Below, one piece after another: positions 3,765 to 18,321 of a DNA stretch of 64,000 bases. The position numbers and the translations under genes were made by a program. The stretch's first letter is position 1, and the number at the start of each line of letters is the position of its first letter. Source of the stretch: a virus; IMG/VR virus record IMGVR_UViG_3300002038_000006, positions 87,480 through 151,479 of that record; one strand, 5' to 3'. The notes beneath the pieces are model-generated. The model was not told where the DNA came from. It saw nothing but the letters and a program-made list of their open reading frames with translations, and searched no databases.

Positions 3765-5663
3765 TTACCATTTAGTACGAGCATTCTGATTTGTGTATCC
3801 GCCACGGTTTCCACCGAACTGGTTTTGTTGGTTAAACATACCAGAGTGTTGGTTACCTTGAGACGCGAAACGTTGGTAGTTAGTCGTTGGACGAGTACCG
3901 GTAGTCATGTCTTGGTAGATGCCTTCTGGACGTACATTCGCACCAGCTGCTGCACATGCTTTAGCTAGAGTAAGAATGAAGTCACTTGTGAAGTCAACGC
4001 GACGAGAGTAACCAGTTACGAATACGTTACCTTCACCTAACAAACCACGTAGGATTGTAAGACGACGCTGTAGACGCATGTCTTCAGCTATGCCAGTGTT
4101 GGTGAACGTATCTACGTAATCCATAACTACTTGCATGTCTGCATCACCTTGTAGGTTCAACATTGCTAAGTAATCAATTTCACGTAGGTCTTTCTGGTTG
4201 CCATCTTGGTCAACGTAGTAACCATTGTGGATACGAGTAACATCACCAGTGAACAACGCCTGACCTTGGAATAGGTTAGAGAAGTTACCATTAGTCATGC
4301 CATCCGCAGCATCAACGATTGCTTGAATTGCTTTGTTGTTACCAGAAGCCGCATCGATTAAGATGTGTTGTACCCAAGTCATTGGACCCGCTTCTGCGAT
4401 ATCCATTGAGTAAATTAAGTTAGGGTGTACAGCTACGCCAAGTAATTGTAGTAACATTGCTGGAGTAAAGTCAGCAGCTTTTGTATCTACTTCTACGTCA
4501 GCTAGTGCAGGACACTCATGCTTAACCGCACCGATATCATGCATGTCAGTACCTTTAACATTGTAGTTAGGTAAGAATGCACGAGCCCAGTTGTGGTCTT
4601 CGTCAAGGATTGCAGCATTTGCAAGACCTTGTAATTGTAACTCAAGAGATACAGAATCGATACCGTGAGTAACACCAGTCATTACGAAACGTGGTAAGTA
4701 ACACTGTGTAGCAGGAGCTTGTTGGTTACCCCATGCTTGTGGCGCTGCTTGTTGTAACGGCTGACCGAATGCATTTTGCTGTGCTGGTGGAGCAACGTAG
4801 ATTAAGTCCATGAAACCAGTAGTTTCAGCAATCATTAGAGATTGTTGACCCCAACCTTCATCTTGACCACCTTGGTTAGCGGTAGCTTTCATACCGATTT
4901 GAATATCTGCACGAACGATTTCGCCAGTACCTGATTCAGTGCTAGTACCCAAGAAGTCCAGACGAGCTGATACTGTTTCTTGTTGTGGGTCCCACATTGC
5001 AACAGAGTACTTCTCTTCAACGCCACCTAAGATACGGTCAAGTAGACCGATGTTAGAGTTAGACACGTCGAATACGATGTTGTGTAAACGAGGTTCATCT
5101 TCATGGCTAAGACCACGAGGAATAACTACTACGCCAGCTTCGTGTAATTGTGCGCCTTCAGGGAAGTGACCTGATAATGCTTCGCAGATGATGCCCCATA
5201 ACTTATCAGTTTGGATATCACCCGGTACACGTTCAACTTCTACATTAACACCTTGTAGGTTAGAAATGCGAGGAGCTAACGCTTCACCTGAGTCTTCTAA
5301 TACAATTGCAGATACTGCAACTACGTTTGATTCAGGAACTGTGGTACATGCAAGAACCATCGAGTACGGTAAGCCCATACCTTCGCGGTCCACTGCTACG
5401 AATTTAAGTGCGTCCGCATCTTGACCTTCTAAGATATCTTGGAAAGCTTTAACGTAAGCGGCTAAGTTCTTACCTGTGCCTTTACGAGAGATTGCACGAC
5501 GTAAACGACCAGCACCACCAATGATACCTGCGCGAGCACCAGCTTGTGCATTAGGAGCAGTTGACTGAGTAGCTTGCTCAGAACCTTCCTCACGACCAGC
5601 GTTCTTGAACGCGTCTTTCATTGAAGTGTTAGTTTCGTTTTTCTTGTTGTCTTGAATTGACAT
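3765..5663 (-). CDS. chmA: chimallin, phage nuclear shell protein (phiKZ gp54 / 201phi2-1 gp105-like)
   Basis: 632 aa with low-complexity N- and C-terminal tails ending in W; strongly biased codon usage; sits between the DNA polymerase block and the gp55-like RNAP subunit. Confidence 0.85.
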   Translation of the reverse strand: MSIQDNKKNETNTSMKDAFKNAGREEGSEQATQSTAPNAQAGARAGIIGGAGRLRRAISRKGTGKNLAAYVKAFQDILEGQDADALKFVAVDREGMGLPYSMVLACTTVPESNVVAVSAIVLEDSGEALAPRISNLQGVNVEVERVPGDIQTDKLWGIICEALSGHFPEGAQLHEAGVVVIPRGLSHEDEPRLHNIVFDVSNSNIGLLDRILGGVEEKYSVAMWDPQQETVSARLDFLGTSTESGTGEIVRADIQIGMKATANQGGQDEGWGQQSLMIAETTGFMDLIYVAPPAQQNAFGQPLQQAAPQAWGNQQAPATQCYLPRFVMTGVTHGIDSVSLELQLQGLANAAILDEDHNWARAFLPNYNVKGTDMHDIGAVKHECPALADVEVDTKAADFTPAMLLQLLGVAVHPNLIYSMDIAEAGPMTWVQHILIDAASGNNKAIQAIVDAADGMTNGNFSNLFQGQALFTGDVTRIHNGYYVDQDGNQKDLREIDYLAMLNLQGDADMQVVMDYVDTFTNTGIAEDMRLQRRLTILRGLLGEGNVFVTGYSRRVDFTSDFILTLAKACAAAGANVRPEGIYQDMTTGTRPTTNYQRFASQGNQHSGMFNQQNQFGGNRGGYTNQNARTKW

Positions 5664-5874
5664 ATCAATTTCCTTTCATTGTTAAATCGATTTAATTAAA
5701 TTTAATGTTTTCTTTGCAACGTTGCTGTTATTGCACCTGAATGATATAGATATGAAAACAGTTTAAATCGAATGATTATTGTGCTTAAACGCACAGGCTT
5801 CGGTTGTGGACAGCATACTGTCCAGTGAGACCACGACAGTCTCTCTACATAATATATAGAAAACTATGTAATTT

Positions 5875-12532: not shown

Positions 12533-12901
12533 CTACTCCAACAAGAAGTGTGCACTATCGCCAATGAGTTCACTGAAGTATGCTTCTCTTCCGGGGTACA
12601 GTTGAATAGCTCTACTTAAATCATTGATGAGGAATCTAGCAGAATCATTTATTAATCCTACTAGGGCTTGGTAATCATTCCCGTCATTTATTTCTAACGA
12701 GTCGGCTATATCATAGGACATCTCAGCTACCATGTCTTTGTCATCCGCATAGGGAGCAATGGCACCTAGTATCTGTAGTACGTCTCTAAATGATAAACCG
12801 AAGTTGGTATCGGCACTGAACATGGGACTATGATGATGTCTCATTTCAATGCGTAACCTGTGGATATTGATAATAGCCACGGCTGGTTTATTAGTTTCCA
12901 T
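12533..12901 (-). CDS. hypothetical protein (acidic paralog array)
   Basis: GGAG RBS, operon packing. Confidence 0.65.
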   Translation of the reverse strand: METNKPAVAIINIHRLRIEMRHHHSPMFSADTNFGLSFRDVLQILGAIAPYADDKDMVAEMSYDIADSLEINDGNDYQALVGLINDSARFLINDLSRAIQLYPGREAYFSELIGDSAHFLLE

Positions 12902-13248
12902 AAATAAAGATATCTCCGTTTATTAAATCTATACTTACTTCACGTCCGCACATTTGTGTATCTAATTGATAGTTCTTTAATAGGTAACGAGCATAGGTAA
13001 ATGAAACGTAGGCAATGAGTTCGTCTTCTTCCGAACTACTGCCCACATCCCAATAATTATACCGCTCCATGAAACGATACCACCACTCTTTAGCTATTGA
13101 CTCTTCAACCAATCTCACGTAACATGAATATAGTTCCGTGTATAAAGTCTTGCCTTGTTAATTCCTCAAAGTCTTCTATTAAAATGTTAGTACCACGCAA
13201 TGCAAACTCGACACTATCCCCTGGGACAATACAAGCTGTTGCTTTCAT
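12891..13248 (-). pseudogene. frameshifted member of the paralog array
   Basis: ATG at 13248 with GAGGT RBS gives 47 aa ending GGT TGA at 13105; the +1 frame (12891..13118) completes a ~119-aa protein like its neighbours. Confidence 0.6.
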
Positions 13249-13257
13249 TACTTACCT

Positions 13258-13740
13258 CTAATAGTAACATGCAGTTCTCATTCGCTCAGGAACAAAGCCA
13301 CCAGATTCTTCAAAGAGTTCATCTTCTTTCTGTTGTCTTTCTAATTCCCTTGCCCGACGGTCACCCATATCTAGAATCTTTAAGTTGTAAACTAGACCTT
13401 GCCAGTCTTGTTCTAAAAACTCTACATCGTAATCATGGGTATCACGTACAGGACCTAATCCCATACGTATCATTTCAGTTAGTTCAGTTCGCATTACTGC
13501 CCGTGCTTTCTCAAGCGTTTCGGTAGGTAATCCAATATCACCAAACTGAGTACTCCGTTCCTCTTCTTCATCCACAAGTCCCCGAAGACTGAATGGGTTG
13601 AGCAAATGTCTAAGCTCCAACTCTATCCATGGTCTCCAATTCATCATGCCTAATAAAAGGTTGTGTTGAGAACCGATTGTTTTCTTGGCCTTATTAATAG
13701 CAGGGGCTACATCAAATATTGCACCAATAGGTCTTGTCAT
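13258..13740 (-). CDS. hypothetical protein
   Basis: ORF in operon. Confidence 0.65.
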   Translation of the reverse strand: MTRPIGAIFDVAPAINKAKKTIGSQHNLLLGMMNWRPWIELELRHLLNPFSLRGLVDEEEERSTQFGDIGLPTETLEKARAVMRTELTEMIRMGLGPVRDTHDYDVEFLEQDWQGLVYNLKILDMGDRRARELERQQKEDELFEESGGFVPERMRTACYY

Positions 13741-15043: not shown

Positions 15044-15238
15044 CTAAGCATCTGGGACGTCTATCTGAAGTCCAACTTCACTACAGTTACTCAAAGCAAT
15101 CATAATACACTGTTTAATACGAGGGTCGAGTATGGGGTCTTCCACACAGTTCTGTAACCAGTGATGGTGTTTATGTACACTCATCAAGGCTCTGAACTTT
15201 GCAGCTTCCATTTTTTCTTTTACGTTAGGGTCGAGCAT
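15044..15238 (-). CDS. small early protein
   Basis: Early promoter at ~15271 plus AAUAAAAGGAAA leader. Confidence 0.65.
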   Translation of the reverse strand: MLDPNVKEKMEAAKFRALMSVHKHHHWLQNCVEDPILDPRIKQCIMIALSNCSEVGLQIDVPDA

Positions 15239-15304
15239 AACTAGTTTCCTTTTATTTAATTAGTTCACCAGTATAATATAGTTTTGTAATAAAATAGCAT
15301 AGAC

Positions 15305-15778
15305 GGCATAAGTGACGGCACGAGCCGTCGTACACGCTAAGGTGCAGCTCCGCCAAGGTTCTTATGTATCATGGGGTCAGGGAGATTCGTCACTATGCTT
15401 TTTCTTTTTGCTGTACTAATACATGTCCACACCTAAATGCTTAATCATATACGTTCGGAGCAGTTAGTCCTTATGGACCACTTATTTGCCCATTTAAGGG
15501 TTCGTCTTTTAACCAGATTGTATTTGAGTTGGAACTGGCTGGTTCAGAAGTAGGTGCCCCGATAAGCGTTCCTACCTCATCCCCAGCTTGGTCCAGCCCT
15601 GACGGGGAATCGCAACTTACTGTTAGCACCTTATACGTTGGATAAATGTGCTGGTCGTTTGTACGACTCAAAAAAGGGGTTAGCGAAATTGAAAAAACTC
15701 TAACCCATACTTCGGCTGCTTGCCCCGTCAGAGCAACCACAGCAACGCGAACGTAACCTCAGAAAGGTACACGTCTAC
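15305..15778 (-). ncRNA. large structured non-coding RNA of unknown family (~470 nt)
   Basis: At least 10 nested helices; the wobble pairs read as G-U only on the minus strand; TATG at 15778-15781; terminal hairpin 15314-15329 plus UUAUGCCG. Confidence 0.7.
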
Positions 15779-15807
15779 ATACTATAGTAGTATAACCTAA
15801 TAAACCT

Positions 15808-16812: not shown

Positions 16813-17511
16813 TTATTTGTAATCATCATAGTTAATATCAGTATACACACCCGGAGCACTGATAGGGTAACGGAATACCACACTGGTACGAACATGGTGT
16901 TGAGCACGAGCTTCTGCGTTAGCAATCTCTTGTCTCCACCAATCGCGAGGTCTAACACACACATGCGCGTTTCGACCATCAGGTAGTATTGTAACTGCTG
17001 GACCTAAATGAATAGATACATGCAGAACCTTAGTTGAGAGTTTAATCAACTCATCTAAGAACCACGGTATATCTTGAGCTGGGATATGTTCCAATACATC
17101 AGTACACACAACCATCTCAGCAGGGAAGTCAGGATAAACCGACAACTCTTCAATACCCGGGTCATACATCTTCACATAAGGTCTACCAAGGAAGTCAAAT
17201 ACTGAATTGTATTGTGGACTAACTGAGCCACCGCCTTCAATTGGTTTAGTAACGCTTTTATCAACGTACTTATGTTTGTAGAATGCATCTGGGTTACCAC
17301 AACCGAAGTTTATTAGAGAACGACATTGGTGTTCTCCCATTAACTTCTTAATGGCTGGGGCTTCTTTTGCGTATTCGCCGTTAGCGAACATTTTTTCAGG
17401 AGCTATTTTTTTATCGTTGGTTAAGGTAGCGCCCTTTTCAGAATAGAGCAACCTGTACTGCTCACCAAGGGATAAGTAATCTTCACTTGGATTTTTACGA
17501 CTGTACTTCAT
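16813..17511 (-). CDS. class I SAM-dependent methyltransferase-like protein
   Basis: INFGCG, YDPG, VCTDVLEHIP and NAH motifs. Confidence 0.75.
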   Translation of the reverse strand: MKYSRKNPSEDYLSLGEQYRLLYSEKGATLTNDKKIAPEKMFANGEYAKEAPAIKKLMGEHQCRSLINFGCGNPDAFYKHKYVDKSVTKPIEGGGSVSPQYNSVFDFLGRPYVKMYDPGIEELSVYPDFPAEMVVCTDVLEHIPAQDIPWFLDELIKLSTKVLHVSIHLGPAVTILPDGRNAHVCVRPRDWWRQEIANAEARAQHHVRTSVVFRYPISAPGVYTDINYDDYK

Positions 17512-17613: not shown

Positions 17614-18321
17614 TTATAACTTACTATAACTCTTGTACTTGAGTTTAGGAAAGCTTTTATCTTCGCTGCTATCTGCCAAGAATGTATTTAGAGCACGACG
17701 GTCATGCATTAGTTTTGCAATAGTCGCATCAGTAGTCTTCTTAGGTAATAGACGGTCATCGTCGTTCTTAAGGAAACGTTCTTCTAGCATTATGTCGATA
17801 AGATACTCTTGCACTGCATTTAAGTAGCGTCTAGCTTTCTTATCATCATCTGCCATCAGAGGTTCTACTGTAAACTCCATCCAAGCAACTTTAGAAGATG
17901 GTGGTGGGTTCACTAACATGAAACAACGAGTACGGTCACGATAGAAAGCAAAGTCACCAATCTCAGCGTCTTCCAAATACTGTAAGTCATCAATGCTGTC
18001 AATAGGCCATTGCGATACAGATACAGGAATACCACCGGGTGTAACACCATCACCTACCCAGAAGCGTCTATCGTCTGTAGTAAATAAAGGTTCACCTAAC
18101 TGTGGAGTAAAAGAAGGTCTAGCTTCGTTTAACCCTACTCGGATACGGATAGGTATGTTAACATTCTTACCCTTTCCTTTCTCATTCAGTTTAATTGGTG
18201 CAGGTAAGCTCTTCTTCTGAGATACATCACCTTTTTTGTCGCCCTGTCTGATAGCAGCCCTTGGACTTACATTACGGCGCGACCTCTTAACTTTGGAGTT
18301 CTTAGAAACTTCATCAGTCAT
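17614..18321 (-). CDS. protein with Mtd N-terminal-like (fibre-associated) domain
   Basis: GEPLFTTDDRRFWVGDGVTPGG motif, also present in 38311 and 38932. Confidence 0.55.
   Translation of the reverse strand: MTDEVSKNSKVKRSRRNVSPRAAIRQGDKKGDVSQKKSLPAPIKLNEKGKGKNVNIPIRIRVGLNEARPSFTPQLGEPLFTTDDRRFWVGDGVTPGGIPVSVSQWPIDSIDDLQYLEDAEIGDFAFYRDRTRCFMLVNPPPSSKVAWMEFTVEPLMADDDKKARRYLNAVQEYLIDIMLEERFLKNDDDRLLPKKTTDATIAKLMHDRRALNTFLADSSEDKSFPKLKYKSYSKL

What the first reader, a model, noticed from the sequence alone, without database searches (positions are those of the whole stretch)
15305..15778. Unassigned ~470-nt multi-domain structured RNA immediately downstream of phuZ
Seen: a visibly GC-richer intergenic block with fully nested helices (forward coordinates). 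15450-57/15748-55 closes a large domain. Inside it are 15597-607/15723-33 (11 bp; enclosing 15625-29/15648-52, 15654-67 and 15677-83/15700-06) and 15474-80/15589-95 (enclosing 15538-42/15583-87 and 15547-54/15571-78). A second domain, 15340-47/15427-34, encloses 15364-69/15419-24, and a terminal hairpin sits at 15314-29. The wobble positions are G-U only on the minus strand, which fixes the orientation. It begins at a TATG late-type start. I could not match it to tRNA, tmRNA, RNase P or group I/II intron cores. Inference: a large phage ncRNA that could act as a scaffold, decoy, ribozyme, or spindle/nucleus-associated RNA.
Basis: partly seen in the sequence, partly recalled or inferred. Interest (0 to 1): 0.88.

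Follow-up and report, generated by a model that had tools for sequence, protein, structure and literature searches.

The report
Phage RNA matching nuclear-shell mRNA leader
Right after its tubulin gene, this marine nucleus-forming jumbo phage encodes a real, conserved, roughly 480-base folded RNA of no catalogued family, whose two most conserved exposed segments are exact complements of two conserved sites in the messenger leader of the phage's nuclear-shell gene, so it may control how much shell protein is made late in infection.

Summary
The RNA is real (window 15778 to about 15301, minus strand).

Folding: z = -4.0 on minus, -0.9 on plus. Nine homologs (62% mean column identity) keep the fold: 50 of 71 pairs change on both sides.

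Boundaries: it starts at a 9-nt promoter found exactly twice per genome in four phages, here and before the major capsid gene. It ends at the phage's genome-wide terminator.

Identity: no Rfam, tRNA or tmRNA match and no conserved ORF.

Target lead: two invariant segments (M1, M2) are complementary to the two longest invariant blocks of the chimallin (chmA) 5' leader, one of them at the ribosome-binding site. That is the only such place in the genome (shuffle p about 0.005). Seven outgroup chmA leaders lack both sites, and a divergent phage matches 11/11 with changed letters.

Best reading (0.4): a late, two-site antisense repressor of chmA, working like RNAIII.

Against: one prediction failed, M2 also fits host rRNA, and I have no expression data.

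The scan found this RNA before on other DNA; the excerpts shown named no target.

The parts
15778..15786 (-). Late-type promoter word TATAGTATG; last G (15778) is the inferred +1
   Evidence: Occurs exactly twice in each of four genomes, before this RNA and before the major capsid gene. +1 is inferred from the phiKZ late TATG motif (own knowledge).
15301..15778 (-). Structured non-coding RNA, about 478 nt (homologs 397-510 nt)
   Evidence: z -4.03; nine homologs found by two covariance models; covariation
15750..15775 (-). P1, 5' hairpin
   Evidence: 98% of cells paired, 3 of 6 pairs change on both sides
15739..15747 (-). M1, invariant 9-nt segment with no conserved partner inside the RNA; complement of the chmA leader loop
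   Evidence: Invariant 9/9; no conserved internal partner; match
15596..15734 (-). Domain I: 12-bp helix P3, helix P4 and a junction carrying P5, P6, P7
   Evidence: P3 has two-sided changes at 12 of 12 pairs
15684..15693 (-). M2, invariant 10-nt part of the pyrimidine-rich apical loop of P5; complement of the chmA ribosome-binding region (also of host rRNA segments)
   Evidence: Invariant 9/9; predicted unpaired 0.86-0.93 in 8 of 9; matches
15531..15595 (-). P8, variable long arm (nearly absent in homolog L014)
15514..15521 (-). M3, near-invariant single strand; no conserved phage target; complementary to E. coli 16S nt 25-31
15465..15500 (-). P9 (hexaloop hairpin) and P10 hairpin
   Evidence: 100% and 96% paired, two-sided changes
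15409..15462 (-). P12 helix with invariant GAA (15456-15454) opposite AGUA (15417-15414), the consensus of a bulged-G / loop E motif
   Evidence: Invariant columns; P12 97.7% paired; motif named from own knowledge, not tested structurally
15304..15398 (-). 3' domain: helix P14, inner hairpins and the terminator word TATGCCG (15310-15304); an elaborated form of the phage's general terminator
   Evidence: 8 of 11 P14 pairs with two-sided change; hairpin + the same word at about 20 sites genome-wide; phiKZ terminators have a like motif (PMC10914365)
15808..16797 (-). phuZ (phage tubulin), 29 nt upstream of the RNA, no terminator word between them
5664..5848 (-). 185-nt structured 5' leader of chmA, the candidate target
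5720..5728 (-). Site complementary to M1, in the loop of a hairpin (5735-5715) invariant in four phages
5665..5672 (-). Site complementary to M2, between Shine-Dalgarno and start codon of chmA
3765..5663 (-). chmA, chimallin nuclear shell protein, 632 aa
   Evidence: Pfam PF25677 E 3e-52, phrog_4795

Best explanation
A stand-alone, late-transcribed phage non-coding RNA that acts by base-pairing in trans with the mRNA of the nuclear-shell protein chimallin. Shown: conserved fold, capsid-type promoter, terminator, no ORF, and two invariant segments complementary to two invariant leader sites. Inferred: the phage RNA polymerase makes it in quantity when capsid genes switch on; M1 pairs (9-10 bp, about -16 kcal/mol) with the exposed loop of a leader hairpin at -65; the rigid P3-P4-P5 arm presents the M2 loop to the -9 to -2 region (8 bp); this blocks ribosome loading and turns shell synthesis down as virion assembly begins. 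The 3' half probably gives stability, termination and protein contacts.
For: The chmA leader is the only place in the 218-kb genome, apart from the RNA's own antisense strand, holding both complements. It ranks first by contiguous pairing in all four genomes tested. It is the only one of 179 three-way orthologs with a conserved 8-nt or longer M1 complement, and one of two for M2. Shuffled motif pairs reach this match in any leader in 7-15 of 2000 trials. The two sites lie in the two longest invariant blocks (21 and 13 nt) of four leaders that are 52% invariant overall. Both sites were present in a fifth leader fetched after the prediction was noted. The base before M1 is G or A in all nine RNAs, either of which pairs with the facing U. 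In divergent phage G003 (ChmA 44-45% identical) the RNA at the same place lacks M1, the leader loop has changed, and the RNA loop matches that phage's differently arranged chmA site 11/11 (126 of 3000 shuffles match any of 136 genes so well). The L014/L016 loops match that G003 site 15/15 (0 of 3000). Seven outgroup chmA leaders have at most 6 nt of either site. In phiKZ, short oligomers at the SD/AUG of chmA block ChmA synthesis (PMC12571901).
Against: Within the main clade both sides are invariant, so there is no true two-sided covariation. My advance prediction that the L016 leader would extend the pairing to its CC-containing loop failed. The G003 RNA is not detected by the family model, so its homology rests on position and one loop. 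M2 fits host rRNA as well or better: E. coli 23S about nt 2010-2020 (10-11 bp in all ten RNAs) and 16S nt 1-8, with M3 matching 16S nt 25-31 (15 of 5000 shuffles). By duplex energy alone chmA ranks only 5th, 1st and 4th in the three main-clade genomes. M1 is predicted mostly paired inside the RNA (0.02-0.41 unpaired) and the RBS site partly paired. The match was found after the fact among about five motifs. The model leaves M3, P9 and the bulged-G motif, and the need for 480 nt, unexplained. The direction of the effect is inferred.
Confidence: 0.4

Rival explanations
1. An ornate scaffold or decoy RNA (GOLLD/ROOL-like way of working) whose invariant segments are tertiary or protein contacts; the chmA complementarity is chance.
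For: Size, many helices, a bulged-G-type motif, and invariant M3 and P9 loop without a phage target. Unrelated folded units of 240-410 nt sit at the same place in more distant phages. ChmC binds small phage RNAs (10.1101/2023.09.22.559000).
Against: Does not explain why both complements sit in the longest invariant blocks of one leader, are absent in outgroups, and shift in G003.
Confidence: 0.24
2. The RNA pairs with host ribosomal RNA (5' end of 16S through M2 and M3, or 23S near nt 2010-2020 through M2) and disturbs ribosome assembly or captures ribosomes.
For: M2 and M3 match E. coli 16S nt 1-8 and 25-31 in all nine RNAs, and the one M3 variant keeps a G-U pair. All ten M2 loops keep 10-11 bp with 23S, including two compatible changes in L019.
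Against: The host is unknown and E. coli was only a stand-in. These rRNA stretches are paired or buried in mature ribosomes (own knowledge). A 9-nt match somewhere in rRNA arises in 3% of shuffles. M1 has no good rRNA match.
Confidence: 0.12
3. It does pair with the chmA mRNA, but to help it: as an export or localisation adaptor, or by bridging the leader (M1) to ribosomes (M2/M3), raising or placing shell synthesis.
For: Same pairing evidence. The chmA start codon is predicted to sit in a small hairpin whose 5' strand is the M2 site. The rRNA matches could supply the second partner.
Against: Pairing at -9 to -2 lies in the ribosome footprint, and oligomers there repress chmA in phiKZ (PMC12571901). 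A capsid-type late promoter fits shut-off better.
Confidence: 0.12
4. A structured 3' UTR and terminator of the phuZ operon that stabilises or localises that mRNA in cis.
For: No terminator word lies between phuZ and the RNA in 12 of 13 related loci or in the window. The 3' domain is the operon's terminator.
Against: It has its own conserved capsid-type promoter. In L021 phuZ keeps its own terminator and the folded unit still follows. phiKZ, RTH11 and Eowyn have no such element.
Confidence: 0.08
5. A ribozyme, intron remnant or DNA-level element (origin, centromere for PhuZ).
For: Next to phuZ; multi-junction fold.
Against: No Rfam hit in the window or 13 loci. No group I, group II or RNase P core words seen in the alignment (by inspection). 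Single copy per genome. G-U strand bias and promoter-terminator framing point to RNA.
Confidence: 0.04

Closest known systems
Staphylococcus aureus RNAIII (two-site pairing with coa mRNA; PMC2837412)
   Same: Large multi-domain RNA using two distant regions, one masking the ribosome-binding site and one contacting a loop, under temporal control.
   Different: No sequence or Rfam relation; phage-encoded; no conserved peptide ORF; pairing here is predicted, shorter (8 + 9 bp), and both sites lie in the 5' leader.
c4 antisense RNA of phages P1/P7 (own knowledge)
   Same: Phage trans-acting RNA with two short segments complementary to a phage ribosome-binding region.
   Different: c4 is under 100 nt and controls an antirepressor in temperate phages; no Rfam C4 hit here; this RNA is about 480 nt in a lytic nucleus-forming phage.
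GOLLD, ROOL, OLE large ornate RNAs (own knowledge; Rfam families)
   Same: Several hundred nt, many helices, phage occurrence (GOLLD, ROOL), loop E-type motif.
   Different: No hit to their models; narrow range (one marine chimallivirus clade); not next to tRNA genes (none in this genome); a specific predicted mRNA target.
phiKZ ncRNA candidates 3'UTR_PHIKZ298 and 5'UTR_p40 (PMC8545117, PMC10914365)
   Same: Non-coding RNAs of a chimallivirus with hairpin + TTAT-type terminator ends.
   Different: Those are 100-200 nt, two-hairpin, UTR-derived and without known targets; phiKZ has no such element after phuZ and no cultured phage matches.

Membership tests
Any Rfam 15 family (GOLLD, ROOL, OLE, RNase P, SRP, 6S, group I/II introns, C4) | Covariance-model score at or above the gathering threshold | tested here: not met
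   0 hits in the window and 13 related loci; best E 1.5 in permissive mode
tRNA / tmRNA | tRNA-like domain or tag ORF recognised by ARAGORN | tested here: not met
RNase P / SRP-like closed RNAs | Conserved helix joining the 5' and 3' ends | tested here: not met
   5'/3' complementarity in the window is lost in L013, L016 and L023 and comes from the generic terminator word
Trans-acting antisense regulator (RNAIII-like, c4-like) | Conserved segments complementary to a conserved target covering its ribosome-binding site | tested here: met
Trans-acting antisense regulator (RNAIII-like, c4-like) | Compensatory change between RNA and target across species | tested here: inconclusive
   Seen for the divergent G003 pair (11/11); not seen for L016, where the prediction failed
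Trans-acting antisense regulator (RNAIII-like, c4-like) | Seed segments single-stranded | tested here: inconclusive
   M2 predicted open in 8 of 9; M1 predicted mostly paired but with no conserved partner
Trans-acting antisense regulator (RNAIII-like, c4-like) | Physical duplex and changed target translation | not testable with these tools
   needs experiment
Dual-function RNA (RNAIII/hld type) | Conserved small ORF inside the RNA | tested here: not met
   ATG ORFs differ in place and length among homologs, none in L013 or L016
Large ornate RNAs (GOLLD/ROOL way of working) | Self-assembly into RNA-only multimers or defined RNP | not testable with these tools
   needs cryo-EM or gradient data
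Independent ncRNA gene | Own promoter and terminator, conserved | tested here: met
Independent ncRNA gene | Discrete transcript observed | tested here: inconclusive
   No RNA holder listed for this sequence; this says nothing either way

The most novel reading that the evidence does not exclude
A phage long non-coding RNA that links the chimallin mRNA leader (through M1) with either its ribosome-binding site or host rRNA (through M2/M3), acting as an RNA switch or adaptor that sets the size or timing of the phage nucleus: RNA-level control of a viral organelle.
Probability: 0.3. Interest if true: 0.92.

Novelty: new variant of a known kind. Interest (0 to 1): 0.78.

Why it matters
I found no report of how nucleus-forming phages limit or stop synthesis of their shell protein, or of a chimallivirus non-coding RNA with an assigned target (literature searches). 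This gives an uncatalogued RNA family with strong covariation and a precise, cheaply testable hypothesis: two seeds, two sites, one essential gene. If true it would be a large phage-encoded riboregulator of the phage nucleus. If the pairing is false, it is still a new ornate RNA family with a capsid-type promoter, worth a structure.

Tried and rejected
Rfam (window, permissive local scan, 13 loci) and ARAGORN: nothing. blastn against 50,697 phage records: only chance 28-nt hits.

A 5'-3' closing helix: rejected, not conserved, and the 3' strand is the generic terminator word. An M1 helix with the 5' strand of P14 (10 bp in the window): possible alternative fold, broken in L014, so not universal. 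A U-rich loop / A-rich tract pseudoknot: low-complexity pairing, not consistent across homologs.

The RBS of the 235-aa gene at 17614-18321 as M2 target (12 bp in the window): lost in L001, L013 and L014. My prediction of an extended L016 duplex: failed.

L026 as an inverted copy (it carries the complement of M1): no model hit on either strand. L017, L025, L021, L026 and L019 are positional analogues only, not shown homologous. Pattern hits L008 and L011 are unrelated. Resemblances to group II domain 5, group I P7, RNase P and T-loops seen by eye were not conserved in the alignment.

Sequencing runs: no RNA holder listed; laid contigs are DNA or of unknown kind, and X1 may be the source sample.

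Full report
Setting. The window lies in a 218-kb virus record with direct terminal repeats that encodes PhuZ, chimallin, a phiKZ-type DNA polymerase and a phiKZ-type major capsid protein. It is therefore a nucleus-forming jumbo phage; the best-matching sequencing run is an algal metagenome, which may be its source. The element fills the gap between the phuZ stop (15808) and a 64-aa ORF that has its own upstream motif.

Observation. The minus strand folds at z -4.03 and the plus strand at -0.87. Rfam and ARAGORN give nothing.

Homologs. Using PhuZ as anchor I recovered eight further distinct copies, 397-510 nt, from phages with PhuZ 72-92% identical; mean column identity is 62%. A covariance model built from three close copies finds all nine 5' halves (E 1e-68 to 9e-9) and nothing else in 26 sources. 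On that alignment 93.6% of cells pair, 32 of 43 pairs change on both sides, and slid controls give 33-43%. For the 3' half: 91.5%, 18 of 28 pairs, slid controls 33-43%. These alignments are fitted to the structure and lean towards it, but an independent anchor-based helix search found the same helices with different letters. The element is single-copy. More distant phages (PhuZ 59-70%) have folded units of 240-410 nt at the same place with like promoter and terminator words, not recognised by the models. Phages at 47% or less mostly have a plain terminator or a gene there.

Boundaries. The 9-nt word ending at 15778 occurs exactly twice in each of four genomes, before this RNA and before the major capsid gene. 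That it is a late promoter rests on the phiKZ TATG motif (own knowledge). The 3' end is a hairpin followed by a 7-nt word seen after about 20 hairpins genome-wide, resembling the phiKZ terminator motif (PMC10914365). No ORF is conserved inside.

Anatomy. From the 5' end: hairpin P1; invariant segment M1; domain I (P3, P4, junction with P5-P7), with invariant M2 in the P5 loop; variable arm P8; near-invariant M3; hairpins P9 and P10; helix P12 with an invariant GAA/AGUA pair of strands typical of a bulged-G motif; and a 3' domain that is an elaborated terminator.

Target. While checking promoters I saw that the 185-nt chmA leader carries the complement of M1 in a hairpin loop at -65 and the complement of eight M2 bases at -9 to -2. 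This is the only co-occurrence in the genome outside the RNA's own locus. chmA ranks first by contiguous pairing in four genomes, though only 1st to 5th by summed duplex energy in the three main-clade genomes. Shuffled motifs do as well in 0.35-0.75% of trials per genome, which after allowing for about five motifs is only suggestive alone.

Further support for the target. The sites are conserved in orthologs where no other gene keeps an M1 site. They fall in the two longest invariant blocks of four leaders. They were present in a leader fetched after the prediction was written down, though the predicted extension was not. Seven outgroup leaders lack them. In divergent phage G003 the RNA lacks M1, the leader loop differs, and the RNA loop matches the rearranged chmA site 11/11, while two main-clade loops match that same site 15/15. 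Oligomers at the chmA SD/AUG block ChmA synthesis in phiKZ (PMC12571901), so pairing there would be expected to repress.

Caveats. There is no two-sided covariation within the main clade. M2 also complements E. coli 23S near nt 2010-2020 and the 16S 5' end, and M3 complements 16S nt 25-31, at a similar chance level; the real host is unknown. M1 is predicted to be largely paired in alternative folds. I have no expression data. Earlier notes of this scan on other genomes report like RNAs after phuZ and say they are present in ocean RNA libraries; I did not check that and do not count it as support.

Verdict. A real, uncatalogued phage RNA family (confidence about 0.93 that it functions as structured RNA). 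Pairing with the chmA leader in some role: about 0.5; as a late repressor: 0.4. It may work like RNAIII or c4 but is not a member of either family. Interest 0.78.

Noticed in passing
window 5664-5848 (-): The chmA 5' leader is itself a conserved structured RNA: three 5' hairpins with apparently compensatory changes, an invariant 21-nt hairpin, and a small hairpin predicted over the start codon.
   Followed up: partly
window 13105 (ORF about 12891-13265, -): The likely source run's contig has 17 extra bases here; without them a 125-aa ORF that is intact in G001 is frameshifted, so the window probably has an assembly error.
   Followed up: yes
genome-wide, e.g. window 22107, 30283, 39625, 43796: Terminators are a hairpin followed by TATGCCG instead of a U-tract, often with a complementary CATA upstream; one site is bidirectional. 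Also seen after phuZ in Eowyn and several marine relatives.
   Followed up: partly
L017:3994-4233, L025:2994-3231, L021:2602-2874: Shorter (238-273 nt) GC-rich folded units after phuZ with promoter and terminator words; L017 and L025 are 79% alike over 157 nt; no Rfam hit; possibly a second RNA family.
   Followed up: partly
L026:3013-3418: A 406-nt folded unit after phuZ that carries the complement of M1, i.e. the same word as the chmA leader loop, near its 3' end; unexplained.
   Followed up: partly
L019:4026-4395 (G003): 370-nt folded unit sharing only the promoter, the M2-like loop and the terminator with the family; its loop matches its own chmA ribosome-binding site 11/11.
   Followed up: yes
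window 15044-15238 (-): The small ORF after the RNA has no Pfam or PHROG match and is replaced by different ORFs of 64-159 aa in relatives, behind a conserved TATATTAT motif: a variable cargo slot.
   Followed up: no
window 16813-17511 (-): A methyltransferase-like gene (phrog_24759, E 2e-13) sits directly upstream of phuZ; a gene of similar size lies at that place in most relatives, whose identity I did not test.
   Followed up: no
G000 whole genome: ARAGORN finds no tRNA or tmRNA gene in the 218-kb genome.
   Followed up: no
L106 (PBYL01000118.1): A chmA-bearing contig of this phage clade is binned in a Thalassovita MAG; probably a binning artefact, not a host assignment.
   Followed up: no
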